Position numbers and translations under genes: made by a program
Notes under the pieces: model-generated
Seen by the model: the letters and a program-made list of their open reading frames with translations, nothing else
Told to the model about the DNA's origin: nothing
The model's database searches: none
Shown here: positions 18,053 to 64,000 of the stretch, piece by piece
Position numbering within the stretch: the stretch's first letter is position 1
Layout of the letters: every line of letters begins with the position of its first letter
IMG/VR virus record: IMGVR_UViG_3300035507_000332
Source: a virus
Taxonomy: Duplodnaviria; Caudoviricetes
Direction: 5' to 3' (one strand)
Length of the DNA stretch: 64,000 nt

Positions 18053-18561
18053 TTCAAAAGCAGGTGTTGGCACATATCAAGAAAGCCATTTTGTTCCCCG
18101 AAGAATTCAATGTACTTATCAGCTGTCAAAGCATTGAGGTAGGTAAGAATTCCAGTGCCTTCAAAAAAGTCCTTAGGCAAGGAATTTTGAACAAGAGGCT
18201 CAAGCTCGGTAAAACCTTCTTTTTCGATAAGTCGCTCAGCTCGTGATTTGAGCATAGAAGGGTATTCTTCCTCGGCGTAGTAGATAGTTTTGCGGTTTTC
18301 TGTATCCCACTTCTTCCACATTGCCGAAGGATAGAACGTCGAATTTCCACGCTTAAAGCTATAGTCAAGAGTTACTATTGCAGGGAAACTCTTTCTATCT
18401 GCAAGACCCTTTTTGCTATCTTGAAACTCGACTACTCGAAGGAAGCAAAGAGCATAAGCTATTTGTCCAGCAACAAGGTCATTTCTCTTTTCAAGACTCT
18501 TGAGAATTTCTTCCCTTAAGTCTGTGGCAAGTAGTTCGATTTGCTCCTCTTGTTCTATCAT
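18049..18561 (-). CDS. Hypothetical protein
   Basis: ORF in operon. Confidence 0.6.
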   Translation of the reverse strand: MIEQEEQIELLATDLREEILKSLEKRNDLVAGQIAYALCFLRVVEFQDSKKGLADRKSFPAIVTLDYSFKRGNSTFYPSAMWKKWDTENRKTIYYAEEEYPSMLKSRAERLIEKEGFTELEPLVQNSLPKDFFEGTGILTYLNALTADKYIEFFGEQNGFLDMCQHLLLK

Positions 18562-36550: not shown

Positions 36551-37330
36551 TTAATTACAGTAAGGAGAGAGAATGTAGTCGGAATCGACTTCGCACCGTT
36601 CGTGGACTTTACGGAAAAAGAGATATCCGTGATTCCTTAATGCTCTGATGTAAGCGTTGCGGATATGGAAATAAGTTCTAGGCTTCAGGCGTGGGACAAG
36701 ATGCTTGTACTTTTCAGGCGTCTCTACCCAAGTGACGTGAGTGGTAGTCTTTCTCTCATACGGTAGAAGAGCTTCCTTCAAGAATGAAATGTAGTAGTGT
36801 TCGTCAGAGAAGAATACCAACCTACATCTTTTTTCTAGTTCTTGGGCGTTAGAAACGAAGAAATGAGCCGTATCTCTATCCATTATCCACCATTGAGAGG
36901 CGAGGGCGAAATTAGCTTTGCTGAAGCCTTTTACAGTTTTGAAATGAGAGCGCATCCAACGGAATTCTAAGTTCTCACGTGCGTTTTCAATCGAGAAAGC
37001 AGGGAGCTTCATCGATTGTAGGATATCAATTGTTTTTGTGATATTGTAGAGAGGGCAGTGAGATTCGCTTAGGAGAACGAAAATTTTATTGTTCTTATTC
37101 TTAAAAGCTTCTTCTAACAGAGCGTTCGTTGCCTTAACTAGAGACAGCTCACTCCAGTCTGTTTCAAAGTGTTTTTCAATTACCCTATTGTCAATCCAGG
37201 GAATGAAAGATTTTTCTTTTTGGTGGACATAGAGATTCCACCGTTCGTCTGATTCGTCAAAGAATTTTCTCCACAAGTTAGGCTTAGTAAACCCACTCGA
37301 AGTTAGTAGCAAGAAAGCAACGGAATCCAT
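36551..37330 (-). CDS. Core-2/I-branching family (GT14) glycosyltransferase
   Basis: VAFLLL, LYVH, TDWSELSLVKA, FVLLSESHCPL, SQWW, DEHYY, FFRK. Confidence 0.85.
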   Translation of the reverse strand: MDSVAFLLLTSSGFTKPNLWRKFFDESDERWNLYVHQKEKSFIPWIDNRVIEKHFETDWSELSLVKATNALLEEAFKNKNNKIFVLLSESHCPLYNITKTIDILQSMKLPAFSIENARENLEFRWMRSHFKTVKGFSKANFALASQWWIMDRDTAHFFVSNAQELEKRCRLVFFSDEHYYISFLKEALLPYERKTTTHVTWVETPEKYKHLVPRLKPRTYFHIRNAYIRALRNHGYLFFRKVHERCEVDSDYILSPYCN

Positions 37331-37848
37331 TTTGTCATATCTACACAACCGACATCTTTGCCTCCTACCTTAAGGTCGTCAATGCCGAGTCTTTTTAAGA
37401 ATCTTAAGTACAAATTTTGTTGGTCTCTTTTAATGAGATCGAAGACTGCGTATTTCACCCCTAGTTCCCTAGAGGCATAAGCCGCTCCTATACGAGTAAA
37501 TTCTAACGTAGCGAAAGGGTCGTCTTTTGAAAAAAACATATACTCTACGTAAATAGAAGGAGTATCTCTGAAAGAAGTCATTCTAAACGGCATAAACCAA
37601 AATTCTTTATTGCCTAGTTCGTCAACAACATCGACTACAACTGTTTTTGTTCTACCGTCATTTTTGAGAGAAGAATCTATAGGGTCGGTAACAGCTGTAA
37701 TTTTTTGCCGAAGAGAAAGGTTCTGGAGGCTTAATTCCATTTTTGAAAACCTATCTATTACAATGGCTTTCATCTTTTCTCCTGCGACAGGGTCGTCTAA
37801 GAAATGAATAGAGGTAACATTATATTTCCCTTTCACAGCAAAAGACAT
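37303..37848 (-). CDS. Hypothetical protein
   Basis: ORF upstream of GT14. Confidence 0.5.
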   Translation of the reverse strand: MSFAVKGKYNVTSIHFLDDPVAGEKMKAIVIDRFSKMELSLQNLSLRQKITAVTDPIDSSLKNDGRTKTVVVDVVDELGNKEFWFMPFRMTSFRDTPSIYVEYMFFSKDDPFATLEFTRIGAAYASRELGVKYAVFDLIKRDQQNLYLRFLKRLGIDDLKVGGKDVGCVDMTKWIPLLSCY

Positions 37849-49940: not shown

Positions 49941-50512
49941 TTCTTCAACTGATTGACGATGGCAAAGCCACGAGGCAACAAATCGAGGATGCGCTTAAAG
50001 CGATTGAGGCAAAGATAGACGACATACAGAGATTCTACTTTGCCTTTGAGGACAGCGGATTTAACTTCAGCGATGGCGGAGTCTACTACCGATTCCACGA
50101 CTACATCAGAATTCCCAACGATATTGACGAGATAAAATTCTCACTCAACAAAAAGAATTTCGAGCGGAATTTTGACGTATTCTTTTCATTCTTCGGCAAG
50201 ACAAACCAAGATATCGAAGCTACGTACGACAACGAAAGTTGCCTAAACGGCGTCATCTTAGAGTTGTTTTTGAAAGCGTGGGATGAGAAGATGTACCCAC
50301 TAGAGCCACTGTACCTACCAACGTCAGAGACTCTTCATATTATCAGAGAAGGAGAAGATTCTTTCTTTCAGCTTGAAAAAGCAAAGTTGACTCCACCTAA
50401 TGGGGTTATTTCCTTACCAGAAGGACCGAACGCATGTGTAGGCGAGAGAATGACTTACATCTATTGGCGTGATACCGTCTGGAAGGTAGAAACAAATAGA
50501 ATATTTTTATGA
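49937..50512 (+). CDS. Hypothetical protein
   Basis: GTGA overlap. Confidence 0.6.
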   Translation: MILQLIDDGKATRQQIEDALKAIEAKIDDIQRFYFAFEDSGFNFSDGGVYYRFHDYIRIPNDIDEIKFSLNKKNFERNFDVFFSFFGKTNQDIEATYDNESCLNGVILELFLKAWDEKMYPLEPLYLPTSETLHIIREGEDSFFQLEKAKLTPPNGVISLPEGPNACVGERMTYIYWRDTVWKVETNRIFL

Positions 50513-51228
50513 ATGGGCGTTTTAAAAAGATGTGTCCAAAAGTCTACGTAGTCTCATTGCCTACAGACATCAGGAGACGTGCGCACACAGAGGACATACT
50601 CAAACCTTACGCTATTGAGCCAGAATTTATCGACGGCGTAATTGTCGAAGATATAGGCGAGGATATGTTCAAGCACCCAGGGTTCTACAAAGATATTGGG
50701 GATGCTACAGAGGAAGAAGTTCTCACGTACAGAAAGAGAATTTGTGGGGTGACTCAGGCGCATTTGCACGCACTAAAGAAAGGCATAGAAAATGCGGAAG
50801 AAGAGAACTCTCTGATATTCCTCATTCTGGAAGACGACATCGAACTTTGCGAAGACTTCGACGAAGCAGTTATCAACCTTTACGACAAGCTCGAATCCGA
50901 CAACAGAAATTGGATAGCGTGCAACCTACAGGTGCGCATGTATAGCTCAATGGCAGGCAAAAACAAGAAAGACCAGATAGCCAACGATACCTACTACAAA
51001 GGCACGACATGGGGACACCAAGGCTACATGTACAATTGCCGTGAATTGCCTAGGCTCAAGGACTTTTACCACGTCCTCAAGTACGGATGCCAAGAAGAAA
51101 TTGACAACTTCTACACACGCTTAGTCAATCACTTCAACCTTTATGGGTCTATTATTCCGATTGTTGCCCAGAAGGACGACTTCGTATCCAACATTTCCAC
51201 TAGAAACGACTACATCAACAACATATGA
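50509..51228 (+). CDS. GT25 family glycosyltransferase
   Basis: KVYVVSL...RRR, FIDGV, H...LK, LILEDDI, GYM, ID. Confidence 0.85.
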   Translation: MNGRFKKMCPKVYVVSLPTDIRRRAHTEDILKPYAIEPEFIDGVIVEDIGEDMFKHPGFYKDIGDATEEEVLTYRKRICGVTQAHLHALKKGIENAEEENSLIFLILEDDIELCEDFDEAVINLYDKLESDNRNWIACNLQVRMYSSMAGKNKKDQIANDTYYKGTTWGHQGYMYNCRELPRLKDFYHVLKYGCQEEIDNFYTRLVNHFNLYGSIIPIVAQKDDFVSNISTRNDYINNI

Positions 51229-53795: not shown

Positions 53796-55052
53796 TTAGA
53801 TATCTTCGTCGTCACCATCAACCGTAGCGGCGGCAGTATTAGTAGCCTTAGCTTCGATTTCAGAGTAACAGAACACACCGTTTTCAGTATCGGTACGGCT
53901 ACCGATCTGAGTTTCAAGCGTAAGAGAAGCCGTGGTGTTCTGACCGATAGAAGAGTTAAAGGACTGTTCAGAGATGGTGCAGTTCTTAACCTTGTATTCG
54001 AGAGCGACCTTGGTCTTGTCCTTTGGATTCTTCACGGAGATGATAACATCAACCTTGGGGTTCTCTTCCAAGATTTCAGAGAGAGACGTGCCAGAGTTGA
54101 TGCCGTTCATGATAGCTTCGATCTGAACAGAAACCGTCAGAGGGAAGGTAATAGAACGAGCGTAGAAGAAACGAGTACCAAGCTTTTGCAAACCTTCACG
54201 AGACATAGGAATCGAGATGTTTGCGCTCTGGATGTACGAGCCAGTATCCTTCAGCTGAGCGAAGTCGATAAGGGTAGCTTCTTGTTCATCGGTCGTGCCG
54301 TGCTTCAAAAGCTTAACCGTAACGTCGCCAGGACGAAGGGCAGAAATTTCAGGGCTTTCCGTATCATAGTACTTTTGGAAAGTGTTAAGCTGAATTTCCG
54401 TAGTGTTAGGTTCGCCAGTAGCCAAGTCAACGTCAGGCATGGTGGTCTTGACTTCGACTTCGTCGTCGCCAGCTTCGATAAGAACGGCGTTGGTATTAGA
54501 GCCTTCAAAAGAAACAGATGCGGTTGGGAATTCACCCACAGCAAAGTTCATAGAGAAGTCAGTAATGTTCATACCACCGTAACCGAGGACAGCCACGTTA
54601 CTAGTAGAGCCAGCAGCCAAGCTCCAAGGCTTAACGTCGGCAAACTTAAATTGGTTCGTATCTTCACCTTCTTCAGCGATAGCAGAGAAGATGTCGAGGC
54701 CAGTGGAAGTATCTTCCAAGTGGCCACCAAGGAAAGAGTCATTCTTGTCCCAAGTACCGTCTTCACCCTTAGTACCACGGTTTACAACGAAGTTAAGAGC
54801 TTCTTCGTTAAAACCTTCAGAGAGGTAGTATTCAGTAGAAGCGGAGACCGTAGGAGCTTCCAAGTTAATACGGTCGATAGCAGCGAGCTGACCGAATTCG
54901 TTAATATCTTGGAAGGAAATGCTGTTCGTCGATTGGAAAGACTGAACACGATAGAGCTGTTGAAGAGCTTCTTCTGGATTTTCTGCGGAAGCAGGAACAA
55001 CCTGAAGCCCGATGCTCTGATAAATCAAACGATTACGCTTGTGTTTTGCCAT
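53796..55052 (-). CDS. Major tail tube protein (internally duplicated tube domain)
   Basis: RNRLIYQS start, two beta-rich repeats, strong codon bias, own terminator and GTGTAA motif. Confidence 0.7.
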   Translation of the reverse strand: MAKHKRNRLIYQSIGLQVVPASAENPEEALQQLYRVQSFQSTNSISFQDINEFGQLAAIDRINLEAPTVSASTEYYLSEGFNEEALNFVVNRGTKGEDGTWDKNDSFLGGHLEDTSTGLDIFSAIAEEGEDTNQFKFADVKPWSLAAGSTSNVAVLGYGGMNITDFSMNFAVGEFPTASVSFEGSNTNAVLIEAGDDEVEVKTTMPDVDLATGEPNTTEIQLNTFQKYYDTESPEISALRPGDVTVKLLKHGTTDEQEATLIDFAQLKDTGSYIQSANISIPMSREGLQKLGTRFFYARSITFPLTVSVQIEAIMNGINSGTSLSEILEENPKVDVIISVKNPKDKTKVALEYKVKNCTISEQSFNSSIGQNTTASLTLETQIGSRTDTENGVFCYSEIEAKATNTAAATVDGDDEDI

Positions 55053-55102
55053 GGCTTAGAAAAAAAGCAGGATTGATTTGTGAGAAATTCCTCTTTCATG
55101 GT

Positions 55103-55129
55103 TTACACAAAATCCGCTATGATGTGTAA
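55103..55129. promoter_or_regulatory. Divergent pair of GTGTAA putative late promoters
   Basis: TTACAC 55103-55108 toward tail tube gene; GTGTAA 55124-55129 toward GT pair. Confidence 0.55.
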
Positions 55130-55163
55130 TCCTCATATAGGAAACACACCTCAGACACCGCTC

Positions 55164-56129
55164 ATGTCAGACAAAAAGATTGAAAATATCGGGATTGTCA
55201 TCCCTGCTTACAAACGCCCCATTGAGACACGCCAAGCTATTTTTTCAGCACTTCACCAAAGCTATAAGTGCAAGGTATTTGTCTCAGTAAAGGGATACTC
55301 AGAAGACAGTTACAAGCGATTCTTCCTAGAAGAATTTGCCAAGGAAATTGAAGCAGGAGACTTAGTTCTTAGCTTCTCGACTAACAAAGGGCAAATTTCC
55401 AACACGCTCGACTGTATCCGAGATGCAGACATCAGCGATATTGACTACTTCGTAAAGATGGACAACGACGACGTCTATCTTAAACAGTACGTGGCAAACG
55501 TTGTAGACTTCTTACAGTACGAAGCCGAAAGCGAATTCTACCCCGATGTAGTTGGTACGTTCTCTTGCAATATGGTTTACCGCAATGCACGTGGTGACTT
55601 TTTTGCACCTAAGCGAGAAGGCTACCTCCTTGGACCGACAATTTGTTTCTCAAAGAAGGTGGTAGACATTCTCTTCAAGGTTGAGCAAGGCGACTACAGC
55701 GACCTTGAAGAAATTGGTCTTGACATCACGCAGTTCAACAACATTTCCGACGACCGATTCGTCTTTGAACTTGGCAAGAAGCTTGGCGGAGCAGTTGACT
55801 ATGGCAAAACCGACTACTTGTATATCAACGAAATCACACCTTCCTGTTGGCGAGGCTCTGACTATATTTCAGCAGCGAACAAATCCGCAACGCTCGAAGG
55901 TAGTTTTGGCTTAGAAGAAGAACAAGTATTGCACGTCTTCCACCCAGGTTGGAGCGGATACCTCATCATCCAAGGAGAACGATTCACAAGAGAAAACGGA
56001 GACCCAGGAGACGTCCTAGAATTCGACAGCGAAGGTATTTGGGTTAAGTGGGACAAATGGGGCAAGGAATACTTCCGTCTCAACCCCAACAAAAACTACT
56101 ATATCTACGAAGGCGAGTCTAAGTTGTGA
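55164..56129 (+). CDS. GT2-like (GT-A) glycosyltransferase with C-terminal WDKWG domain
   Basis: IVIPAYKR, ALHQSY, YFVKMDNDDVY. Confidence 0.82.
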   Translation: MSDKKIENIGIVIPAYKRPIETRQAIFSALHQSYKCKVFVSVKGYSEDSYKRFFLEEFAKEIEAGDLVLSFSTNKGQISNTLDCIRDADISDIDYFVKMDNDDVYLKQYVANVVDFLQYEAESEFYPDVVGTFSCNMVYRNARGDFFAPKREGYLLGPTICFSKKVVDILFKVEQGDYSDLEEIGLDITQFNNISDDRFVFELGKKLGGAVDYGKTDYLYINEITPSCWRGSDYISAANKSATLEGSFGLEEEQVLHVFHPGWSGYLIIQGERFTRENGDPGDVLEFDSEGIWVKWDKWGKEYFRLNPNKNYYIYEGESKL

Positions 56130-57103
56130 ACAGAGACTTTAGATTTGCGCTCCTCCTAACCACCTACAAGCGGTTATGCGAGGGGCAACTTCAGATATTC
56201 AAGATGCTCAACCAGAGCTACGAGAATTTCCATTTATTCGTAGCTGTGAAGGGGTGCTCTGAATACGTATTCAACAAGAGTTGGCTTCCCTACTTTCAAA
56301 AGCACATCGACGAAGGGAAGCTAACTCTGCGTCGATTCCCTAACAAAAACCAAATGAGCAATTTGGTCGATTGCGTGCGAGGACTAAACTTGCGAGGGTA
56401 CGACTACTTTTGCAAGATCGACGACGACGATTTCTACGACGTCAACTACCTCAAGCGATGCAACGAAGCAGCCAACGAGAGCAACGGCAAAAACTTATTT
56501 TGGATGGACAGGTCGTGCCGTCTAGTTGTCAACAGGCACGACGATTTTTACCGCTTCAAAAAGAACACCCAGTGGAATTCTTACTGGGGGCCAACGCTTT
56601 GCGCAACAAGGTTTGTATGGCAGGAATACATGAACTTGGAAAATGGAGAGGAAGACTTGCCCACATACATTGGCAAGAACAACCTACCAGCGATGCCAAG
56701 GCATAAAGACTGCGGATTCCACGAAGACAAACTGCTCTACTCAATGATGAGAGCTTTTGGTGGGGTCTACAATATTCGCAAGAATGGTATTCCCTACGTA
56801 ATGTTCAACGAGAGCAATGCGTCAGTTACACGAGGGGGGTTTGTCAACGGTTGGTTCCAGACAGAAAACTTTGACGTAACTAAGTCCGAGCTAGCCGAAG
56901 AACAAATTTTTTATTGCAAGACCCCCGATTTTGAAGACGACGTACGAGTATTTATGGGGTACGCCTGGGGAGTAGCAAGCGGAGCAACAGGCAAGGTAAT
57001 TAGTCTCACAGACACCGAGCTAGAAATCGACTGGGATAAATTCCTACCACAAAAATACATCCGACAAGAAGACGGTTCTTGGTGGTCTGACGACCCGATT
57101 TAA
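56126..57103 (+). CDS. GT2-like glycosyltransferase, paralog of preceding gene
   Basis: LLTTYKR, LNQSY, YFCKIDDDDFY, GPT, ED; same C-terminal domain. Confidence 0.82.
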   Translation: MNRDFRFALLLTTYKRLCEGQLQIFKMLNQSYENFHLFVAVKGCSEYVFNKSWLPYFQKHIDEGKLTLRRFPNKNQMSNLVDCVRGLNLRGYDYFCKIDDDDFYDVNYLKRCNEAANESNGKNLFWMDRSCRLVVNRHDDFYRFKKNTQWNSYWGPTLCATRFVWQEYMNLENGEEDLPTYIGKNNLPAMPRHKDCGFHEDKLLYSMMRAFGGVYNIRKNGIPYVMFNESNASVTRGGFVNGWFQTENFDVTKSELAEEQIFYCKTPDFEDDVRVFMGYAWGVASGATGKVISLTDTELEIDWDKFLPQKYIRQEDGSWWSDDPI

Positions 57104-57124
57104 CAATCCTCGGTGTAAACTAAG

Positions 57125-57340
57125 ATGATGCACCGTAATTACAAGAAAGAGTTCCAGAGCCACATCCGAGGCCGCCTCACCAAAGACCAACGCAAAACCC
57201 TAATGCTCAGCAGAGAAGCAGATGCCGTGACGGCATTTGCCAAATTGTCTATTGCCGAGCAAACACAAGTTGTTAGAGACTTAAAAGCCAAGGGTTTTGT
57301 GGCTCAAGCGGAATTCTTAGAGAAGAGAATCGGTGAGTAG
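57125..57340 (+). CDS. Small hypothetical protein
   Basis: GTGTAA motif directly upstream. Confidence 0.55.
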   Translation: MMHRNYKKEFQSHIRGRLTKDQRKTLMLSREADAVTAFAKLSIAEQTQVVRDLKAKGFVAQAEFLEKRIGE

Positions 57341-57362
57341 CAATCCAACAGGTTAGAGAAAG

Positions 57363-60300
57363 ATGTCGGAGTTTTCTTCAGTATATTATGTTGTACACCC
57401 ATCCAAAGGGCTGATTCCGTTTTACGGAGATTTTGCGTCCAAGAAAGATATTCTTGACGCAATTGGTCAACTTGGAGGGACGTTTAAGCCACTTGTCGTA
57501 TCATCGTTGCCTGATGCAGGGGAGGATGGGTTCATTTATTTTGTACCTAATGGGGTAGATGCAGGGGACAACCAACATAACGAGTACTTATATTTCAATG
57601 GGCGATGGGAGCTTATTGGGTCAACAGGAATCGACCTAACAGGCTTTGCCACTGAAGAAGCTCTGAACACGCATACGAGCAACTCATCCATTCACGTCAC
57701 AGCAACCGACAGGAATAGATGGGACTCGAAACAAGACGCAGGGGACTACGCTACAAACACCGATCTAACGACAGGGCTTGCTTCAAAGCAGGACGCAGGA
57801 GACTACGCCACCAACACGGCACTAACGACTGGGTTAGCTAAGAAGCAAGACGTCGGCGATTACGCCACAAATACTGCTCTAAAAGAAGGTCTAGCCACCA
57901 AACAAGACGTCGGAGACTACGCCACAAATTCCGATCTCACCAGTGGGCTTGCGACGAAGGTAAACACAGCGGAATTTTCCACTCACACAAACAACGGAGA
58001 TATCCACGTTACCCTCGACGACAAGAGCGTATGGAATTCCGCACCAACCAACTTAAAGCTACACACTGGAGATTCTGACATCCACGTTACAGCGAAGGAC
58101 AAAGCAAAGTGGAATGCGAAACAAGACGCAGGTGACTACGCCACCAACACCGCTCTAACCGAAGGATTAGCCACAAAGCAAGACGTCGGCGATTACGCCA
58201 CGAATACGGCACTTACCGAAGGACTCGCCACGAAACAAGCTGTAGGAGACTACGCAACGAATACAGCTTTAACAGAAGGGCTAGCCACCAAGCAAGACGT
58301 TGGCGATTATGCAACCAACGAAGCTTTGGCGACAGGTCTAGCCACGAAGCAAGATGCAGGTGATTACGCCACAACCGACGAACTGACTACCCACACAGGC
58401 AACACGGTTATTCACGTCACACAAGAAGACCGAGACCGATGGGACGCAGGTTCAAATGAAGGAGTCGAAGCCTCAATTGCAGAAGTCTCAGCCAACCTAA
58501 CCACACATACAGGTAATTCCGACATCCATGTCACAGCAGAAGACAAGGAAAAGTGGAATTCTTTGCCCACCCAGTTAGATGTAACTAACTCTGTTAATGA
58601 CGCCAAAGCTTCTCTTCAGTCCGACTTGCTCACCCACACAGGGAACGCAGCGATTCACGTCACCACAGAAGACAAAGCAATTTGGAACGCCAAGCAAGAT
58701 GCAGGTGACTACGCCACGAACGACGCATTGACGGCAGGACTGGCTACCAAACAGGATGCAGGGAGCTATGCTACAACCGATGAATTGGCAAGCCATACAA
58801 GCGACACAGAAATCCACGTCACAGCAGAAGACAAAGCCCGATGGGACGCAGGCTCAAACGAAGGCGTAGAAGCGTCTATAAGCGAGGTCAAGGACTTTCT
58901 TGGCACTCACGTAGGCGACACGTCTATTCACGTCACCACGGACGAGAAAGACGCCTGGAACGCCAAGCAGGGAGCAATCTCAACCGTCAACGTATCCAAG
59001 AGCGATGACGCTTCATCAATTGCCGATGGAGCATTGAACGTCAACTTACCTACGGATTGGTTCACTCAAGCTGAGATCGACACAAGCGACTTCGTCACCT
59101 TAAGCGGAGACCAAACTATTACAGGGAACAAATTCCTCAAGGGTGGCGTTGCCGCTTATTCCGCTGTAATGTTCGTCAATTCCACGAGTTCAGGAGACGA
59201 AACGATTGGCAGTATTTATCCAAGCTCAACGTCATACCCATTTGTATTCCTCAAGCCTGCATACTTCAGTGGCACGCAAAACGTATTCAAGAACAACGTC
59301 ATTGTCGGTGGGCAAGTAACAGCAGGAGCTGCTTCTATAGGAAACCTTGCCACAACAGGGTACGCCAAAATTGGTACAGACTTGACAGTAGATGGCCACG
59401 CTACAATCAATGGGTTGGTCACTACCATCAATAGCCAAGACCTCTATCTTGACGGACATATTCACTTGTCAAGTTCTGGCGGTAAATTTATTGATGGACA
59501 CTCTCTTTTCCGAGGCAGGGCTGAATTTTCAGGCTCGGTAGATATTGTCTCCGACACCAAGGTAAACGTCGATAGTAGCTCTATCCTTACGGTTGCCAAG
59601 ATGCAAACCGACACGGCGAAATTTACCTCAGATGAAATTTCCAACCAGGTAACCACCAAGAAGTACGTCGATAGCAAGATCGACTATGAAGTAAACACTC
59701 CTAGGCAATTTGTTATTTCCAGAGCAGAGTCTTGGAGTTCAGTCGCAGGTTGGTATTCTCAAGGAGAAGGCTTTTTGAGTATTCCTGGAATCGACACAAT
59801 CGACTGCTCCTTATACTCTTGCTCATCATGGGACGAAGCGTCGTTCTCCTTTACAACTCAGGGGAATTCCTCAATGTTGAGTTTGACGATTCCTGTGGGT
59901 ACGAATTCTTCAGGGAGCACGAACAACGGCACGGTAACTTCAGGCAATTATGTAACGCTTGACACCGACCAGAATATTTCAGGGAACAAATTCTTTGATG
60001 GGCATGTTACTTTCCAAGGACCGTTCGTGGTTTTTGATGTAGACGACATTTCTTTCTCAGGGAGCGTATCAGTTCGAGACCTTGAAGTTAGAGGCTCTTC
60101 TAACTTCTACAGCCAAGCGAATTTTTCTGGAGATGTCAATATCCAAAGCACTGGAAGCTTAAAGAATTCTGGGAGTACATACCTCAATGGTTACAACAAA
60201 GTAAACGGTTGGACATACCTTAATAGCTACAACAGCGTAAACGGTTGGACTGACTTTTATTCAGCAGCTTCTTTTCATAACGTAGCTCTTTTTGGTAGCG

Positions 60301-61658
60301 ATGGGCATATTCAAGTAGATTCTAGGTGGGTGGGAATTTCCTCTCCTAACGTCGATTTCTACACGGTCAGTGACGGTCACGCTCAAAAAATTACCCTTGG
60401 AAACAACAGTATCCTAACCGTTGCCCAGGTACAGACAGACTCATCTAAGTTCTCTAGCGACGAACTTAGAAACCAAGTCGTGCCTAAATGGTACGTCGAT
60501 CAGTTGATTGACGGACACTTTGATGGGCATACTTCTACATCTGGGCGGTATGTAGATCTAACATCCAACCAAGAAATTGATGGTTACAAAACATTTAACA
60601 ACATCACTTACTTCAAGTCCGACATCAGTGTAGATGGGCATATTTGGCTACAAGACATGTTTTGGGCTAATAACGATGCTTGGTTCTATAGCAATGTTTA
60701 TTTTCAAGGCGTCCCAACTTTCTATAGCGATGTAAATCTTACAACTACGTCAAAGCTTACCTCTAATGGTGTAGCTAAGTTTAATGGAGTTGCTACTTTT
60801 AGTTCTTCAGCTTCTTTCAAAGGTGTAACTTCGTTCGCTGATTCCGTCTATTTCAATGGAGGGAGTAGCGGAGCAAAGACAATGTTCAATACGTCGGTAA
60901 CCTTTAGCGGAACAAGTCTTTACATCGGAACAGACGAAACGAGCATTGGTGGGAGCGTAAAATTTATCGCTGGAGATGTTGCGTTTAACAATCAAAGCGT
61001 AGGATTCAACACGCCTGTTACGTTCGACAAGCTTCATAGTACGACTTTCAACGGTAGCACTTCTTTCAACAAAGACGTCTCTTTCAATGGAGATCTTTCC
61101 TTTGGTGGTGAAACAACAACCTTTGCGTCGAGCCTAAGTAAGTTTACAGGAAGCCTAGCGAGCTTCCAGAGCGATGCGCTATTTGCTTCACAGGTAGACA
61201 TGAACAGCACGGTAAACAACCGAGGCAAGGTGAATGTTTATGGAGGTATGTACATTGGCAGAGAAGAAGACTGGAGTGCACTTGACATTGCTCAAGAGCA
61301 AAAACCAGAAGTAACTCAATTCCGGCCTTCTTTAAGAAGCGTCAATGGACAACTCATTGAATTCCCAAGGCTTGGTTGCGCAGATGGGACTCAAGAAAGT
61401 TGGTTCGTGGACAACACGACAAGAGTAACTACTGTCTTCCCATGGTGGCCGACTTCTGGTTATGAATCTGACAGCTTCTCTGACGAGAATTTGGAATATT
61501 CCAACTATCAGAATAACCTTTACCTTTGCAATGCAGGTATGGTCAAGTACCTAGTAAAATCAGCTTTGGAACTCATGGGGTACGACGTTTCAGTACTTAA
61601 GCCCGAATACTTCACTAAGGCAGTAGACGAATACTACAACAAATACGGAGAATACTAA
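57363..61658 (+). CDS. Long tail fibre/receptor-binding protein
   Basis: VSSLP..G..GFIYFVP...WELIG N-terminal module, shaft repeats, three xQxIxGxKxF modules, beta-rich C-terminal half. Confidence 0.85.
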   Translation: MSEFSSVYYVVHPSKGLIPFYGDFASKKDILDAIGQLGGTFKPLVVSSLPDAGEDGFIYFVPNGVDAGDNQHNEYLYFNGRWELIGSTGIDLTGFATEEALNTHTSNSSIHVTATDRNRWDSKQDAGDYATNTDLTTGLASKQDAGDYATNTALTTGLAKKQDVGDYATNTALKEGLATKQDVGDYATNSDLTSGLATKVNTAEFSTHTNNGDIHVTLDDKSVWNSAPTNLKLHTGDSDIHVTAKDKAKWNAKQDAGDYATNTALTEGLATKQDVGDYATNTALTEGLATKQAVGDYATNTALTEGLATKQDVGDYATNEALATGLATKQDAGDYATTDELTTHTGNTVIHVTQEDRDRWDAGSNEGVEASIAEVSANLTTHTGNSDIHVTAEDKEKWNSLPTQLDVTNSVNDAKASLQSDLLTHTGNAAIHVTTEDKAIWNAKQDAGDYATNDALTAGLATKQDAGSYATTDELASHTSDTEIHVTAEDKARWDAGSNEGVEASISEVKDFLGTHVGDTSIHVTTDEKDAWNAKQGAISTVNVSKSDDASSIADGALNVNLPTDWFTQAEIDTSDFVTLSGDQTITGNKFLKGGVAAYSAVMFVNSTSSGDETIGSIYPSSTSYPFVFLKPAYFSGTQNVFKNNVIVGGQVTAGAASIGNLATTGYAKIGTDLTVDGHATINGLVTTINSQDLYLDGHIHLSSSGGKFIDGHSLFRGRAEFSGSVDIVSDTKVNVDSSSILTVAKMQTDTAKFTSDEISNQVTTKKYVDSKIDYEVNTPRQFVISRAESWSSVAGWYSQGEGFLSIPGIDTIDCSLYSCSSWDEASFSFTTQGNSSMLSLTIPVGTNSSGSTNNGTVTSGNYVTLDTDQNISGNKFFDGHVTFQGPFVVFDVDDISFSGSVSVRDLEVRGSSNFYSQANFSGDVNIQSTGSLKNSGSTYLNGYNKVNGWTYLNSYNSVNGWTDFYSAASFHNVALFGSDGHIQVDSRWVGISSPNVDFYTVSDGHAQKITLGNNSILTVAQVQTDSSKFSSDELRNQVVPKWYVDQLIDGHFDGHTSTSGRYVDLTSNQEIDGYKTFNNITYFKSDISVDGHIWLQDMFWANNDAWFYSNVYFQGVPTFYSDVNLTTTSKLTSNGVAKFNGVATFSSSASFKGVTSFADSVYFNGGSSGAKTMFNTSVTFSGTSLYIGTDETSIGGSVKFIAGDVAFNNQSVGFNTPVTFDKLHSTTFNGSTSFNKDVSFNGDLSFGGETTTFASSLSKFTGSLASFQSDALFASQVDMNSTVNNRGKVNVYGGMYIGREEDWSALDIAQEQKPEVTQFRPSLRSVNGQLIEFPRLGCADGTQESWFVDNTTRVTTVFPWWPTSGYESDSFSDENLEYSNYQNNLYLCNAGMVKYLVKSALELMGYDVSVLKPEYFTKAVDEYYNKYGEY
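57670..58970 (+). repeat. Coding repeats in fibre shaft
   Basis: 11 copies of KQD(A/V)GDYAT-type units (mostly 19 aa/57 bp) and 8 copies of HxxxxxIHVT..D...W. Confidence 0.9.
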
Positions 61659-61663
61659 GAAAA

Positions 61664-62512
61664 ATGACGCAGCACCCTACATTTTGTTGGTTTAGTTTTC
61701 GCCGAGACGCTAGCCACCTGTTATACAGCGTGGCTAGCATACGGCGGTTATATCCAGAGTCGCAGAAATTTGTTTTTGACGACGGAAGTTATCCACTACC
61801 CAAGCGAGCCAAGAGAGTTTTGACGAACTGGGGAGTCAACGTCATCACGACAACATTTCCCCGAAAAGGGAATTTGCGAGGATGGACATGTGCCTACAAG
61901 ATAGCCGAATGCTACACATGGCTAGCGAACATCACAGGGAGTGAGATCGTCGTCAAGGTAGACTCAGACACCATATGGTTAAAGAAAGGGTGGCTAGAGA
62001 AATTTGCCGAAAGCGGATGTGTACTAGGCGGAATGCGGAGCAAATGCCGACGAGGAGTATGTGGCGTCTCCTACGCACTCAAGCGAGAAGGAATCGACCT
62101 TCTCATGGAGAGCTACAAAAACGAGCTAGAATCCCCATATTCCACCGAGGAAGACTTTGAAGTATGCAACCGCATATCCAAAGCCAAAGGAGGGAATGGA
62201 GACGACATCATCTACAAAGCACCCTACAGCCTATGGGGGATACATCCAGAATGCCCCGATGCAGTAGGCGTGGCGGTAGACTGGGGACAAAACTGCGCCC
62301 AGTTCATAGCCGACACAATGGAAGTAGTTGTTTTTGCCTACGACCCACCCAACCCACCAGGGTGTAAAACAGATGAAAAAGGCCAACCAGTAGCAACCAA
62401 AGCAGGAACACCGCTTTGGCTACGAGCAAGACTTTTAAGAGCCTCTTCAATGAGAAACATCTTAAAGCGTGTAATTCAAAATCAGGACAAAAGATGGCAG
62501 ACGAACGATTAA
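61664..62512 (+). CDS. Putative GT-A glycosyltransferase
   Basis: SVASIRR, FVFDD, VVKVDSDT (DxD), EED. Confidence 0.6.
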   Translation: MTQHPTFCWFSFRRDASHLLYSVASIRRLYPESQKFVFDDGSYPLPKRAKRVLTNWGVNVITTTFPRKGNLRGWTCAYKIAECYTWLANITGSEIVVKVDSDTIWLKKGWLEKFAESGCVLGGMRSKCRRGVCGVSYALKREGIDLLMESYKNELESPYSTEEDFEVCNRISKAKGGNGDDIIYKAPYSLWGIHPECPDAVGVAVDWGQNCAQFIADTMEVVVFAYDPPNPPGCKTDEKGQPVATKAGTPLWLRARLLRASSMRNILKRVIQNQDKRWQTND

Positions 62513-62913
62513 CACTACGTTTCCACGGAAACGACTGGGATAAATTTGACATGCAGATTAGTTGGGTAGATGCGGATGGATTTTCCATGCTAGCAGACAC
62601 AACAAGCGAAAGCTTGACAGAAGACCAACTCAAGGTAGTAGCGGCGATTGCAGGCCCATTAGTTGCGTTAAAAGCAGACTGGATGGCCAAGCAAGTCATT
62701 GTGACGAAATTCCGAGACAGCCTCAACCTAATTGTCATTGCCGAAAAAGAAAAGAACGGACAAGTGGCGACCAAGGTATTTACCGAAAACGACCTCGAAG
62801 AACTGCGCATTACCGACGAAGCGTCAATTGCATTGTTCGACGGCATTGTAGCCTCCGTACGTACGGAAGAAACGACCGAAGAAACAGCAGACACCGAAGA
62901 AGTTTCCGAATAA
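62494..62913 (+). CDS. Fibre-associated small protein (possible chaperone)
   Basis: Downstream of fibre; GTGTAA at 62469; resembles recalled Akkermansia prophage proteins. Confidence 0.45.
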   Translation: MADERLTLRFHGNDWDKFDMQISWVDADGFSMLADTTSESLTEDQLKVVAAIAGPLVALKADWMAKQVIVTKFRDSLNLIVIAEKEKNGQVATKVFTENDLEELRITDEASIALFDGIVASVRTEETTEETADTEEVSE

Positions 62914-62934
62914 CCAACGCCAAAACATCTTACC

Positions 62935-62965
62935 AAGAGAGGGGCGAGCAACCCCTCTCTTTTTT
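62935..62965 (+). terminator. Intrinsic terminator
   Basis: AAGAGAGGGG/CCCCTCTCTT then T tract. Confidence 0.8.
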
Positions 62966-62994
62966 GTCCCTAGGTGTAAGTATATGAGTAGAAT

Positions 62995-63531
62995 ATGAGC
63001 ATGAGGATAGCACTTGACATTGGACACGCAAATGGGACAGGCGCACGAGGAAACGGACTAGAAGAACATGCAGTTGCAAAGACAATCGTATGTGCTTTAG
63101 CGTCAAAGTTATCCGCAATGGGGCACGACGTAACCGTCATCGACTTCCCCGAAATGAGCAACCGAGACGACCTAAACGCCACGGTAAAAGCAGCGAATTC
63201 AGGGAACTACAACCTAGGCATCTCAATCCACTGCGACTGTTCAGACAGTTCAGCTGCAAGAGGGGGACACGTATGCTACTTCCCTTCATCGAAGAAGGGC
63301 AAGGCGTTAGCAGAAGCAATAGCAAAGCCACTTTCAACCTTACTACCTGGAAGAGCTAATACGACGGTAGAGCGAGGAAATTTGGCAGTATTAAAACAAA
63401 CCAACCCAGTATGGGTATTGTGCGAATGTGGGTTTATTAGCAACGAAGGAGACGCACAAGTAATGAAGGACAATCCTGGAGCAATTGCAGAAGCCATTGC
63501 GCAAGGGATTAAAGTTTACCTCGAATCATGA
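62995..63531 (+). CDS. Endolysin, N-acetylmuramoyl-L-alanine amidase (Amidase_3)
   Basis: IALDIGH, E, ISIHCD, VLCECGFISN. Confidence 0.92.
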   Translation: MSMRIALDIGHANGTGARGNGLEEHAVAKTIVCALASKLSAMGHDVTVIDFPEMSNRDDLNATVKAANSGNYNLGISIHCDCSDSSAARGGHVCYFPSSKKGKALAEAIAKPLSTLLPGRANTTVERGNLAVLKQTNPVWVLCECGFISNEGDAQVMKDNPGAIAEAIAQGIKVYLES

Positions 63532-63749
63532 ATACTATAGAATTAGAACTCGGTGAAAAAATTCTTCGAGAACATAGCTCTGAGCGCACTCGGTGTACTG
63601 TTTACACTCGGGTCATGGGCTACCATCGCCCTGTTGAGACGTTTAATAAGGGCAAGCAAGGAGAATTCGAAGACCGCACACACTTCATTGAGCCTACCCA
63701 CGACAATGAGCCGAGCAATCTGCATCATCCCAGCGAAGAAAAACTCTGA
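63528..63749 (+). CDS. Stand-alone NrdD C-terminal glycyl-radical domain
   Basis: CTVYTRVMGYHRPVETFNKGKQGEFEDR. Confidence 0.8.
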   Translation: MNTIELELGEKILREHSSERTRCTVYTRVMGYHRPVETFNKGKQGEFEDRTHFIEPTHDNEPSNLHHPSEEKL

Positions 63750-64000
63750 GAGACTACCTCAGAAGAATTTCTTACCTCTAGGGGGCGTTCCATTGTGGAT
63801 ACACACAGTGGAACATGCCCTCAAGGAAGACTTTGAATTTGTAGTCAGTACCGACAGCCAAGAAATCATCGACGAATGCAAGAAAAAAGGTTGGCGATAC
63901 TTTGAAGAAACGGTTGACGACTCAGACATGAGCAACTGCGTACGCCAAGTCCTCACCGAGTACGAAGACTACGACTACTACATCATTCTACAGCCGACCT
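63706..64000 (+). CDS. NeuA-like acylneuraminate (CMP-sugar) cytidylyltransferase, 3'-truncated; absent from ORF track
   Basis: Manual translation MSRAICIIPAKKNSERLPQKNFLPLGGVPL...VVSTDS...IILQPT. Confidence 0.85.
   Translation, partial: MSRAICIIPAKKNSERLPQKNFLPLGGVPLWIHTVEHALKEDFEFVVSTDSQEIIDECKKKGWRYFEETVDDSDMSNCVRQVLTEYEDYDYYIILQPT

What the first reader, a model, noticed from the sequence alone, without database searches (positions are those of the whole stretch)
55103..64000. Phage-encoded glycan-building system interleaved with tail genes (candidate virion or host-surface glycosylation)
Seen: two paralogous GT2-like genes share a divergent GTGTAA promoter pair with the major tail tube gene; another DxD GT directly follows the tail fibre; a NeuA-like CMP-sugar synthetase follows the endolysin. 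Elsewhere lie GT25 (50509), GT14 Core-2/I-branching (36551) and CgtA-like (17207) genes: six GT-like genes plus a sugar activator. Known: GT14 includes mucin core-2 beta-1,6-GlcNAc transferases, GT25 LOS galactosyltransferases, CgtA and NeuA serve Campylobacter ganglioside mimicry; capsid/tail tube glycosylation is known in mycobacteriophages. Inference: the phage builds a branched, possibly sialylated, mucin- or ganglioside-like glycan on its virion (immune shielding, or bait for a mucin-foraging host), or remodels host LOS for superinfection exclusion.
Basis: partly seen in the sequence, partly recalled or inferred. Interest (0 to 1): 0.85.

Follow-up and report, generated by a model that had tools for sequence, protein, structure and literature searches.

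The report
Akkermansia phage glycan-building gene set
A large uncultivated phage that most probably infects the gut mucin-eater Akkermansia carries, among its tail genes, an unusually big kit of sugar-adding enzymes (including a new, miniature sialyltransferase-like family) that mirrors its host's own surface-glycan genes; what the kit decorates is still unknown.

Summary
In 53.8-64 kb a tail tube gene (fold-confirmed) sits back to back with two paralogous GT2-like genes. These are followed by a tail fibre, a GT-A-like 282-aa gene, an amidase endolysin and a CMP-sugar cytidylyltransferase. GT25 and GT14 pass Pfam cut-offs; the "CgtA-like" call is only a lead.

Just past the window lie three 177-aa paralogs. 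Their confident model matches GT29/GT42 sialyltransferases best, and their homologs are usually fused to a cytidylyltransferase.

The endolysin is 65% identical to that of an Akkermansia muciniphila phage; the next best phage hit is 37%. The GT2-like, cytidylyltransferase, sialyltransferase-like and CgtA-like genes, and more weakly GT25, have homologs clustered in an accessory Akkermansia locus. That locus also carries GT6, GT10, GT11 and GT31 domains.

So this is a host-related glycan assembly kit in a roughly 145-kb Akkermansia siphovirus. The acceptor is unresolved: tail proteins are slightly favoured over host lipooligosaccharide (LOS) or capsule. No NeuB was found, and the GTGTAA "promoter" is unproven.

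Other first-stage notes of this scan flagged the same genes; none had tested them.

The parts
53796..55052 (-). Major tail tube protein (418 aa), a tandem-duplicated tube fold. It carries an 18-residue disordered, Thr/Ala-rich C-terminal extension that the listed aligned relatives lack.
   Evidence: AF2 model; Foldseek. Family of 375 homologs without a Pfam domain. C-terminal comparison. Bidirectional terminator at 53744-53773.
55053..55163 (.). 111-bp divergent control region between the tube gene and the GT2 pair, with an inverted GTGTAA pair (55103-55108 on the minus strand, 55124-55129 on the plus strand).
   Evidence: Sequence. Motif statistics. Promoter function not shown.
55164..56129 (+). 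GT2-like glycosyltransferase a. The maximal ORF starts at 55080; the likely start is ATG 55164. DxD-type motif DNDD. A small C-terminal 'WDKWG' domain.
   Evidence: Pfam PF00535, 26.9 bits; confirmed. Of 16 nucleotide differences to the near-identical record G000, only 2 change an amino acid, which indicates purifying selection.
56126..57103 (+). GT2-like glycosyltransferase b, paralog of a.
   Evidence: 27% identity to a, E 2e-26. 30-35% identical to internal domains of Akkermansia multi-domain GTs.
57125..57340 (+). 71-aa protein of unknown role.
   Evidence: No family hit.
57363..61658 (+). Tail fibre (1431 aa) with DAGDYATN and HTG..IHVT repeats. Its distal half is the main site of strain variation.
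   Evidence: PHROG tail proteins. Repeats. 172 of the 202 differences to G000 lie here.
61664..62512 (+). 282-aa GT-A-like 'fibre partner' protein with invariant DD and DSD motifs.
   Evidence: Alignment. hhalign against an Akkermansia GT2 alignment: probability 81%. The same family directly follows fibre-like genes in Akkermansia phage DTMo-2021a and in a prophage-like island. It lies next to the cytidylyltransferase in phage record G155.
62494..62913 (+). Probable 139-aa acidic protein. The 141-aa ORF 62562-62987 in another frame looks spurious.
   Evidence: ORF translations.
62935..62961 (+). Terminator-like hairpin that closes the GT2-fibre unit.
62995..63531 (+). N-acetylmuramoyl-L-alanine amidase endolysin.
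   Evidence: Pfam Amidase_3, 100.7 bits. 64.9% identical to Akkermansia phage DTMo-2021a; the next best phage hit is 37%.
63528..63749 (+). 73-aa stand-alone NrdD C-terminal glycyl-radical domain.
   Evidence: Pfam NRDD, profile positions 532-562. 72-79% nucleotide identity to sequence in 13 of 151 sampled genomes of the Akkermansia family.
63706..64000 (+). CMP-(non)ulosonate-type cytidylyltransferase. It runs on to window-equivalent 64347. Three sialyltransferase-fold paralogs follow at 64348-65943, which are L002:3565-1970 on the minus strand of the near-identical record.
   Evidence: PF02348, 60 bits. Best PDB match is N. meningitidis CMP-Neu5Ac synthetase. Paralogs.
50509..51228 (+). GT25-family glycosyltransferase.
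   Evidence: Pfam PF01755, 30.2 bits. 42% identical ortholog in the syntenic phage record G157.
36551..37348 (-). GT14 Core-2/I-branching family glycosyltransferase, next to the tail-tip genes.
   Evidence: Pfam PF02485, 79.5 bits. 50% identical ortholog in G157. No homolog found in 101 Akkermansia genomes, an uncontrolled null.
17207..18073 (-). 288-aa GT-like protein, 'CgtA-like' as a lead only.
   Evidence: No Pfam hit. Atlas feature match to CgtA clusters, 0.97. 31-33% identical to stand-alone or fused Akkermansia proteins in the same locus as the other homologs.

Best explanation
This is a phage-encoded glycan assembly kit in a roughly 145-kb long-tailed siphovirus of Akkermansia. Soluble single-domain glycosyltransferases are encoded inside and beside the tail-gene units, and a late timing is inferred from that. 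They comprise two GT2-like enzymes, a GT-A-like fibre-partner protein, GT25, GT14 and a CgtA-like protein. Outside the window there are a GT11-like protein, a further paralog pair and two sulfotransferase-like proteins. They would use host nucleotide sugars to build an oligosaccharide of the kind Akkermansia puts on its own surface. The phage's own cytidylyltransferase would activate a 2-keto-3-deoxy acid sugar supplied by the host, either salvaged sialic acid or Kdo. Three miniature GT29-like transferases would add that sugar as a cap. The acceptor I favour, weakly, is the virion tail: the tube protein's extra C-terminal tail and/or the fibre. That would give particles a host-like or mucin-like coat. 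Shown here: gene identities, folds, homology to the host locus, and the host link. Inferred: late timing, donor sugar and acceptor.
For: Enzyme identities. Sialyltransferase fold of the 177-aa paralogs: pLDDT 94.5. All matches ranked 1-29 shown by Foldseek are GT29 or bacterial (GT42-type) sialyltransferases. VIA-align gives ST6GalNAc2 Z 12.3 over 168 of 177 residues, then ST3Gal-I 11.7 and ST8SiaIII 10.4. Nine of 10 longer homologs carry CTP_transf_3 on the same polypeptide, N-terminal to the domain in eight. The family profile reaches a phage protein that itself passes the Pfam GT29 cut-off. An H-x4-E element is conserved. Host link: endolysin 65% identical to A. muciniphila phage DTMo-2021a, next best 37%. 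The same fibre, then 282-family, then endolysin arrangement occurs in that phage and in a low-GC island of a complete Akkermansia genome. The ST-like family was found in 13 of 101 Akkermansia genomes, against at most 1 of 250 Bacteroidales and 0 of 250 genomes of the order of a Faecousia MAG. Homologs of five kinds of the phage's glycan genes cluster in one Akkermansia locus. Support for virion targeting: GT genes sit inside tail-gene units. The tube protein next to the GT2 pair has a unique disordered Thr/Ala-rich C-terminal extension. CMP-sugar/ST-like modules lie near fibre or receptor-binding genes in four phage lineages. No transmembrane segments are predicted. Many different GTs suit de novo glycan building. 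Mycobacteriophages glycosylate capsid and tail tube with their own GTs (PMC12363180, citing Freeman 2023). GT2a and the 282-aa gene are under purifying selection between two strains.
Against: No data on transcripts, virions or LOS exist. The Akkermansia homologs probably act on lipid-linked LOS or capsule, so the phage enzymes may do the same. The tube C-terminal correlation rests on one phage against its relatives. The syntenic relative G157 lacks the GT2 pair, the 282-aa gene and the CgtA-like gene, so the kit is not a fixed unit. The 282-aa protein could be a fibre chaperone rather than an enzyme. One of the three ST-like paralogs lacks the conserved His. The donor sugar is unknown: no NeuB in the phages or in Akkermansia, and published A. 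muciniphila LOS has Kdo but no sialic acid (PMC11436972). No CRISPR-type matches were found to support the host call.
Confidence: 0.42

Rival explanations
1. Host-surface remodelling. The enzymes extend or cap the infected cell's LOS or capsule, which are the probable receptors of the fibre. Other phages, and the phage's own progeny, would then no longer adsorb to infected cells, debris or vesicles. This is receptor masking, as T5 Llp or Cor do for protein receptors.
For: The closest cellular homologs sit in an Akkermansia glycan locus alongside GT6, GT10, GT11 and GT31 domains. That content fits the fucose-, alpha-Gal- and GalNAc-rich, Kdo-containing LOS described in PMC11436972. Receptor-masking genes are classically linked to receptor-binding genes (my own knowledge of T5 llp-pb5 and cor), which fits the repeated adjacency to fibres. 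Between two strains, differences concentrate in the fibre's distal part and the adjacent genes. Capsule and phase variation in Akkermansia are thought to be driven by phages (PMC13343947).
Against: Masking usually needs one enzyme, not about thirteen plus sulfotransferases. No integrase or lysogeny genes were seen in the 80.9 kb held, and the GT genes look late, which leaves little time for LOS export. The GT14 gene found no Akkermansia homolog in 101 genomes (uncontrolled null).
Confidence: 0.35
2. No coordinated system. The genes are independently acquired accessory genes with separate or minor roles. Some are not enzymes: for example, the 282-aa protein may be a fibre assembly chaperone, and some ST-like paralogs may be inactive.
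For: The genes are scattered over more than 60 kb on both strands. The complement differs between syntenic relatives. The 282-aa family has no family-level hit and always trails a fibre-like gene. One ST-like paralog lacks the conserved His.
Against: The cytidylyltransferase and ST-like triplet form a tight module that recurs in another phage and as fusions in Akkermansia. Homologs of most of the genes are neighbours or fused in one host locus. Purifying selection acts on GT2a and the 282-aa gene. The 282 family also sits next to the cytidylyltransferase in G155.
Confidence: 0.12
3. DNA hypermodification. The transferases glycosylate modified bases of the phage genome to evade restriction.
For: Large lytic phages often glycosylate DNA (my own knowledge of T4 and relatives). 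A DNA methyltransferase lies at 13248-14366.
Against: The families found (GT14, GT25, GT29-like, GT11-like, sulfotransferase, CMP-sugar synthetase) are glycoconjugate enzymes with homologs in a host surface-glycan locus. No hydroxymethylase-type gene was met in the proteins scanned, but not every ORF was scanned.
Confidence: 0.03

Closest known systems
Mycobacteriophage virion glycosylation (Che8, Corndog, Myrna; Freeman et al. 2023, as summarised in PMC12363180)
   Same: Phage-encoded GT-A-type glycosyltransferases that, as I recall (not checked here), lie near the structural genes. There, tail tube and capsid subunits are the acceptors and the coat shields virions from antibodies.
   Different: Those phages carry a few GTs. 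This one has about 13 GT-like genes, a CMP-sugar synthetase and two sulfotransferase-like genes. It has a Gram-negative Verrucomicrobiota host. No glycosylation has been observed here. That the glycans sit on C-terminal extensions in mycobacteriophages is my recollection; the paper was not readable here.
GT29 (animal and poxvirus) and GT42 (Campylobacter Cst-I/Cst-II) sialyltransferases; Maf flagellin nonulosonate transferases
   Same: Same fold (Z 12.3 to 8.7). An N-terminal motif resembling sialylmotif L, and an H-x4-E element like motif VS. Use of a CMP-sugar is implied by fusions to cytidylyltransferases.
   Different: Only about 170-177 aa, against about 270 aa for a GT29 catalytic domain. 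No membrane anchor. Below the Pfam GT29 cut-off (11.9 bits). The family is found in Akkermansia and phages. Donor and acceptor are unknown.
Akkermansia accessory multi-domain glycosyltransferase locus
   Same: Holds homologs of the phage's GT2-like (30-35% identity), cytidylyltransferase (38-42%), ST-like (26-36%), CgtA-like (31-33%) and GT25 (25%) genes, and of the GT11-like protein and the 243/255-aa pair.
   Different: In the bacterium these are fused into 750-1075-aa proteins together with GT6, GT10, GT11 and GT31 domains. In the phage they are separate small genes, several of them duplicated. I found no paper describing this locus.
Chlorovirus PBCV-1 and cyanophage glycan and LPS genes
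   Same: Viruses that carry several glycosyltransferases of their own rather than relying on the host's (my own knowledge).
   Different: Different hosts and enzyme families. PBCV-1 glycosylates its capsid by an experimentally shown route. The cyanophage genes have no proven target.

Membership tests
GT29 sialyltransferase (Pfam PF00777), for the three 177-aa paralogs just beyond the window | Sialyltransferase-type GT-A variant fold | tested here: met
   AF2 pLDDT 94.5. Foldseek ranks 1-22 shown are GT29 structures, then GT42. VIA-align: ST6GalNAc2 Z 12.3, rmsd 3.2 A, 168 residues aligned.
GT29 sialyltransferase (Pfam PF00777), for the three 177-aa paralogs just beyond the window | Score over the Pfam gathering cut-off (23 bits) | tested here: not met
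   No Pfam hit. 11.9 bits on profile positions 57-89 only. A distant family member, L009:5113-5742, does pass with 36.7 bits and is reached by the family profile at E 2e-12.
GT29 sialyltransferase (Pfam PF00777), for the three 177-aa paralogs just beyond the window | Sialylmotifs L, S, III and VS, including the catalytic His of H-x4-E | tested here: inconclusive
   In the 37-row alignment, N8, R28 and G41 are invariant. D24 and D45 occur in 35 of 37 rows, TT112-113 in 30-31, H151 in 25 and E156 in 30. H-x4-E is present in one paralog and H-x3-E in a second; the His is absent in the third. Equivalence to the GT29 motifs was not checked residue by residue on structures.
GT29 sialyltransferase (Pfam PF00777), for the three 177-aa paralogs just beyond the window | Transfers a sugar from a CMP-activated donor | not testable with these tools
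   Indirect only. CTP_transf_3 is fused to the domain in 9 of 10 longer homologs, and the cytidylyltransferase gene is adjacent here and in G155.
GT2 (Pfam PF00535), for 55164-56129 and 56126-57103 | Pfam cut-off, and a DxD motif after a Rossmann-like N-terminus | tested here: met
   First gene: 26.9 bits against a 23.3 cut-off, motif DNDD. Second gene: no Pfam hit of its own, but 27% identical over 313 residues, with DDDD at the same place.
GT-A glycosyltransferase, for 61664-62512 | Recognisable GT-A family or fold | tested here: inconclusive
   Invariant DD and DSD motifs. hhalign against an alignment of 23 (27 extracted, length-filtered) Akkermansia GT2 proteins: probability 81%, E 1.3e-5 over the first 93 columns. 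Negative controls gave 0.1-0.2%. The Pfam-positive GT2 pair gave only 5.5% in the same test. No Pfam, PHROG or PDB hit.
GT14 Core-2/I-branching (PF02485), for 36551-37348 | Pfam cut-off over most of the domain | tested here: met
   79.5 bits against 23.4; residues 10-215 match profile positions 1-237 of 250.
GT25 (PF01755), for 50509-51228 | Pfam cut-off | tested here: met
   30.2 bits against 24; N-terminal 118 of 199 profile positions.
CgtA beta-1,4-GalNAc transferase (PF06306), for 17207-18073 | Pfam cut-off | tested here: not met
   No hit at E 0.01 or in the six-frame search (that search rang in no control genome). Its Akkermansia ortholog scores 19.5 bits against a cut-off of 21. Atlas feature similarity of 0.97 to CgtA clusters is a lead only.
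CMP-sialic acid, CMP-Kdo or CMP-pseudaminic acid synthetase (PF02348; NCBIfam PseF, KdsB) | Family-level domain, and equivalog-level specificity | tested here: inconclusive
   PF02348 is met (60 bits). All equivalog models fall far below their cut-offs: PseF 55 against 206, KdsB 49 against 255. PDB matches in order are NeuA of N. meningitidis (E 2e-6), another NeuA, then KdsB. The sugar is therefore undecided.
Phage virion glycosylation system (mycobacteriophage type) | Glycans attached to virion proteins by phage GTs | not testable with these tools
   Only gene context and the tube protein's C-terminal extension bear on this.
Siphovirus tail tube protein with fused tandem domains (T5 pb6 / P74-26 type), for 53796-55052 | Tube fold, duplicated | tested here: met
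   Foldseek E 3e-10 to 3e-4 against SH-Ab15497, P74-26, DT57C and T5 pb6, with 390-436 aligned columns.

The most novel reading that the evidence does not exclude
Virions of an Akkermansia phage are coated, on the tail tube and/or fibres, with a fucosylated, branched, acid-sugar-capped and perhaps sulfated glycan that imitates mucin or the host's own mucin-mimicking LOS. The coat would be made by a phage-borne assembly line that includes a previously undescribed miniature GT29-like transferase family. It would serve as bait for a mucin-foraging host, as an anchor in mucus, or as a shield from antibodies.
Probability: 0.22. Interest if true: 0.9.

Novelty: new variant of a known kind. Interest (0 to 1): 0.74.

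Why it matters
Akkermansia is a keystone gut mucin degrader and a candidate therapeutic, yet almost nothing is known about its phages. A large lytic-looking phage carrying a copy-like set of its host's surface-glycan enzymes would give a handle on three things. The first is what Akkermansia phages recognise. The second is how the bacterium's host-mimicking glycans are built: the accessory locus with GT6, GT10, GT11, GT31 and GT29-like domains appears undescribed. The third is whether phages in mucus wear glycans. The roughly 170-aa sialyltransferase-fold domain, usually fused to a CMP-sugar synthetase, would be the smallest enzyme of this fold I know of (my own knowledge, not surveyed) and a compact tool for glyco-engineering if it is active.

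Tried and rejected
- Megablast of the region against 50,697 phage records found nothing.
- Sequence searches of PDB with the tube protein, ST-like paralog, 282-aa protein, GT2a and their profiles gave no usable hits.
- Shallow hhalign runs among the phage's own GT-like families were all non-significant.
- The word-indexed homolog search for the ST-like paralog found only itself. Two IMG/VR scans with too-broad or too-narrow alignments failed.
- Extending the sequence past the end of the held record by an exact-match scan failed. The GT6 triplet claimed by other first-stage notes could therefore not be seen, and Pfam GT6 finds nothing in the 80.9 kb held.
- No tRNAs were found.
- No CRISPR-spacer-like perfect matches to window 1-40000 or 44001-64000 were found in 151 sampled genomes of the Akkermansia family. 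Only conserved-gene matches appeared. Window 40001-44000 was not searched.
- I first mis-framed GT2a, which suggested an excess of amino-acid changes. In the right frame the differences are 14 of 16 synonymous at codon level, so the idea of diversifying selection was rejected.
- The 141-aa ORF 62562-62987 was rejected as spurious.
- A domain tree of the ST-like family was only a quick, poorly resolved one. It shows that the three paralogs are a lineage-specific duplication and gives no donor direction.
The Freeman 2023 paper was not held.

Full report
**Setting.** The window is the reverse strand of bases 3913-67912 of an 80,876-bp IMG/VR virus record (CheckV 56% complete). Window and record are identical for the first 55,336 bases and then differ at 202 positions, so they are two strains of one phage.

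**What kind of phage.**
- A 3,755-aa ORF runs into the window start. Two conserved genes precede it. In the syntenic relative, a homolog of the tube gene lies nearby. I read the ORF as the tape measure protein.
- Lambda-type tail-tip genes (minor tail protein, tail assembly protein, central fibre J) lie at 38.2-43.4 kb.
- A replication block lies at 20-35 kb: recombinase, helicase, exonuclease and a DnaE-like polymerase.
- The 418-aa protein at 53796-55052(-) had no family hit. It belongs to a family of 375 metagenomic proteins. Its model (pLDDT 76.5) matches fused-tandem tail tube proteins best: SH-Ab15497, P74-26 and T5 pb6, E 3e-10 to 3e-4.
This is a long-tailed siphovirus of about 145 kb.

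**The region of the finding.**
- The tube gene ends at a bidirectional terminator at 53744-53773. It diverges from a rightward unit across a 111-bp gap.
- The rightward unit holds, in order:
  - GT2-like a, with a likely ATG at 55164. It passes Pfam GT2 at 26.9 bits against a 23.3 cut-off.
  - GT2-like b, 27% identical to a.
  - A 71-aa gene.
  - A 1,431-aa fibre, with PHROG tail hits and fibre repeats.
  - The 282-aa gene.
  - A probable 139-aa acidic gene.
  - A strong terminator at 62935-62961.
- Next come the Amidase_3 endolysin and a 73-aa stand-alone NrdD C-terminal domain.
- Then comes the cytidylyltransferase (PF02348, 60 bits), whose probable start is 63706.
- GTGTAA is not over-represented. 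However, 13 of its 31 copies in the record lie close to a same-strand ORF start, against 2.7 expected. Eight copies lie 10-33 nt upstream of a start. It may be part of a start-proximal signal. A promoter role is not shown.

**Beyond the window: a miniature sialyltransferase-like family.**
- Three tandem genes of 176-177 aa directly follow the cytidylyltransferase. They are 51-57% identical to each other.
- They have no Pfam or PDB sequence hit.
- An exhaustive profile search found 105 cluster representatives.
- With 37 of these as the alignment, the model is very confident (pLDDT 94.5).
- Foldseek's matches ranked 1-29 shown are all sialyltransferases. GT29 comes first (ST8SiaIII, ST6GalNAc2, ST3Gal-I), then Campylobacter Cst-I and Cst-II.
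- A search independent of Foldseek gives ST6GalNAc2 Z 12.3 (168 of 177 residues, 3.2 A). It then gives ST3Gal-I 11.7, ST8SiaIII 10.4, ST6Gal1 9.8, Maf 8.8 and Cst-I 8.7. Pyrophosphokinases of the same superfold are interleaved.
- Nine of ten longer homologs carry a CTP_transf_3 domain on the same polypeptide, N-terminal to this domain in eight. This fusion argues that the domain uses a CMP-activated sugar.
- The family profile reaches phage protein L009:5113-5742 at E 2e-12. That protein itself passes the Pfam GT29 cut-off (36.7 bits).
- The window's own paralogs reach only 11.9 bits on the motif-L part of the GT29 profile.
- Conserved positions include N8, R28 and G41 (invariant), D24, D45, a TT pair and an H-x4-E element. 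One paralog lacks the His.
- I therefore describe them as a new, minimal, GT29-like family, not as members of GT29.

**Which sugar.**
- The cytidylyltransferase is nearest to N. meningitidis CMP-Neu5Ac synthetase in PDB, then to KdsB.
- It aligns full-length only to PseF among the NCBIfam models. All models score far below their cut-offs.
- NeuB was not found in five phage records of this group or with this module, one of which CheckV rates 100% complete. It was also not found in four Akkermansia genomes.
- The sugar must therefore come from the host: Kdo, or sialic acid salvaged from mucin. This is inference.

**Other glycan genes.**
- GT25 (50509) and GT14 (36551) pass Pfam.
- The 288-aa protein at 17207 fails the Pfam CgtA test. 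It resembles CgtA clusters only in the language-model search.
- Before the window start, the record has two paralogous Sulfotransfer_2-like genes; one scores 33.3 bits against a 22 cut-off.
- It also has a 277-aa protein that aligns to the GT11 region of an Akkermansia protein. It has a 243/255-aa paralog pair that aligns to the C-terminal domain of another.
- None of these proteins has a predicted membrane segment.
- The 282-aa protein has invariant DD and DSD motifs. With 28 family members, it matches an alignment of Akkermansia GT2 proteins at 81% probability over its N-terminal 93 columns. Negative controls score 0.1-0.2%. This is suggestive, not proof.

**Host.**
- A scan of 185,579 species genomes with the ST-like pattern returned 16 loci. 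Eleven were Akkermansia, Akkermansiaceae or Verrucomicrobiales. Four of the others sit on contigs of 10 kb or less, consistent with mis-binning; the fifth is a weak partial hit.
- The profile found the family in 13 of 101 Akkermansia species genomes. It appeared in 1 of 250 other Bacteroidales and 0 of 250 other genomes of the order of a Faecousia MAG.
- The endolysin's best match among 50,697 phage records is Akkermansia phage DTMo-2021a, whose host is A. muciniphila NBRC 114322. Identity is 64.9% over 98% of the length; the next best hit is 37%.
- In that phage, a fibre-like 714-aa gene is followed by a member of the 282-aa family.
- A complete Akkermansia genome has a roughly 45-kb island of GC 0.45-0.49 in a 0.545 background. 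Its genes run in the order fibre-like, 282-family (45% identity), two small genes, endolysin (52% identity). This is the same order as in the window.
- The phage's low GC (0.44) thus matches that of the prophage-like island in Akkermansia; phage DTMo-2021a's sampled region is GC 0.555.
- I rate an Akkermansia host as probable, about 0.8. No CRISPR-type match was found.

**The host locus.**
- In A. muciniphila-labelled and other Akkermansia genomes, one locus encodes the following:
  - A 756-aa protein: GT31 + methyltransferase + GT11.
  - A 786-aa protein: a domain 35% identical to GT2-like b, plus GT6.
  - A 1,075-aa protein: GT10 + cytidylyltransferase (41% identity) + ST-like + a small domain + a domain like the phage's 243/255-aa pair.
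  - A 268-aa protein 31-33% identical to the phage's 288-aa protein.
  - A 969-aa protein: GT10 + GT2-like.
  - A GT25-like protein, in a second genome's locus.
- In A. glycaniphila, the cytidylyltransferase, ST-like and CgtA-like parts are one 782-aa protein.
- The published A. muciniphila LOS has three Kdo, several fucoses, alpha-Gal, beta-GalNAc and GlcNAc. Its authors suggest it mimics host glycans (PMC11436972; also PMC13135019). That this locus makes LOS is my inference.
- I found no paper on the locus or on phage GT29-like genes.

**Comparative pattern in phages.**
- Syntenic relative G157 shares 45 genes with this phage. It keeps GT14 (50% identity), GT25 (42%), a cytidylyltransferase-like gene (27%) and a sulfotransferase-like gene (27%). 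Its fuller record G154 also has an ST-like gene.
- G157 lacks the GT2 pair, this fibre, the 282-aa gene and the CgtA-like gene.
- Unrelated phage G155 has a cytidylyltransferase, three tandem ST-like genes and a 282-family gene close to its receptor-binding proteins and nrdD/nrdG.
- L009 has four ST-like genes, radical-SAM enzymes and an aminotransferase after tail fibres that carry an endosialidase-chaperone domain.
- A probable phage contig (L017) has a fibre homolog next to a cytidylyltransferase-ST-like fusion.
- The module thus recurs beside fibres.
- The three paralogs here are a lineage-specific duplication, in a quick tree with 99% support.

**Strain variation.**
- Of the 202 differences between window and record, 172 fall in the fibre's distal part, causing 66 amino-acid changes.
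- GT2a has 16 nucleotide differences but only 2 amino-acid changes. The 282-aa gene has 7 and 1.
- These genes are therefore under purifying selection and lie in the variable host-range module.

**Interpretation.**
- The system-level reading is well supported, at about 0.8. It is a host-related glycan assembly kit with its own CMP-sugar activation and sialyltransferase-fold capping enzymes, in an Akkermansia siphovirus.
- The acceptor is not decided. Several points lean towards tail proteins:
  - the placement of the genes inside tail-gene units;
  - the number of different enzymes;
  - the absence of membrane segments;
  - the tube protein's unique disordered Thr/Ala-rich C-terminal extension, where close relatives end at ...YSEYTL;
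  - the mycobacteriophage precedent (PMC12363180).
- Two points lean towards LOS or capsule remodelling for receptor masking: the homology to a host surface-glycan locus, and the classic linkage of receptor-masking genes to fibre genes.
- I put the odds at roughly 0.42 against 0.35.
- Other first-stage notes of this scan (e1-5748444, e1-5748460, e1-5748449) had flagged the same gene set. I could test only the part that lies within the record available to me.

Noticed in passing
window 63528-63749 (+): A 73-aa stand-alone copy of the NrdD C-terminal glycyl-radical domain (RVMGY motif) sits between the endolysin and the cytidylyltransferase. It is 72-79% identical at the DNA level to sequence in 13 of 151 sampled genomes of the Akkermansia family (taken, by the Pfam NRDD hit, to be nrdD 3' ends). 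It may be a 'spare-part' radical domain like E. coli YfiD/GrcA, or a gene remnant.
   Followed up: partly
L003:8032-8661 and L003:7366-8016 (about 6.5-7.7 kb before the window start): Two paralogous genes (46% identical). One passes the Pfam Sulfotransfer_2 cut-off (33.3 against 22 bits). Carbohydrate sulfotransferases would be unusual in a phage, to my knowledge (not checked in the literature), and they fit a mucin-like product.
   Followed up: partly
L022:1310-12941; L024:1663-11317; L013:1780-8203; L016:7269-9617: An accessory Akkermansia locus of 750-1075-aa multi-domain glycosyltransferases. They combine GT31, GT11, GT6, GT10, a cytidylyltransferase, the ST-like domain, and CgtA-like and GT2-like domains. 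The ST-like domain occurs in about 13% of sampled Akkermansia species genomes. I found no description of the locus in the literature searched.
   Followed up: partly
window 55950-56129 and 56930-57103; also Akkermansia L022:5932-9159 residues 774-821: A small C-terminal domain (about 50 aa, with a conserved 'W-D-K/R-W-G..E.F' motif) is shared by both GT2-like proteins, by some stand-alone ST-like homologs (P0129, P0133, P0141, P0142) and by the Akkermansia fusion proteins. It may be a targeting or oligomerisation module. Its role is unknown.
   Followed up: no
window 55337-63124: Window and held record are identical for 55.3 kb and then differ at 202 sites. 172 of these fall in the distal part of the fibre gene. 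This looks like a strain-level host-range hot spot or a recombined module.
   Followed up: yes
window 1-10333, continuing 934 bases upstream: A 3,755-aa ORF, probably the tape measure protein. It would imply a tail of roughly half a micrometre. The relative G157 has a 2,561-aa homolog (46% identity).
   Followed up: partly
whole record; for example window 51540, 52239, 57113, 62974: GTGTAA is not enriched overall but sits 10-33 nt upstream of eight start codons. 13 of 31 copies lie near same-strand ORF starts against 2.7 expected. It may be a start-proximal regulatory or late-promoter element.
   Followed up: partly
G183:C1:2985000-3030000 (L051-L053); L104 (Akkermansia phage DTMo-2021a): A low-GC, prophage-like island lies in a complete Akkermansia genome. 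An isolated Akkermansia phage is also informative. Both place a 282-family gene directly after each large fibre-like gene, twice in the island. The family is multi-copy (up to 6 copies) in Akkermansia genomes.
   Followed up: partly
window 46573-47952 (-): An HNH/homing-endonuclease-like gene lies inside the tail region, with three homologs scattered in phage record G155.
   Followed up: no
IMGVR_UViG_3300045988_183135 (G154, 173 kb): The record holds the tube-gene region twice in opposite orientation and is classed as having inverted terminal repeats. It is probably a fold-back assembly of a roughly 145-kb genome, so its '100% complete' label should be read with care.
   Followed up: no
L008:9418-10656: An IS605 OrfB/TnpB-like gene sits next to the ST-like triplet and nrdG in phage record G155.
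   Followed up: no
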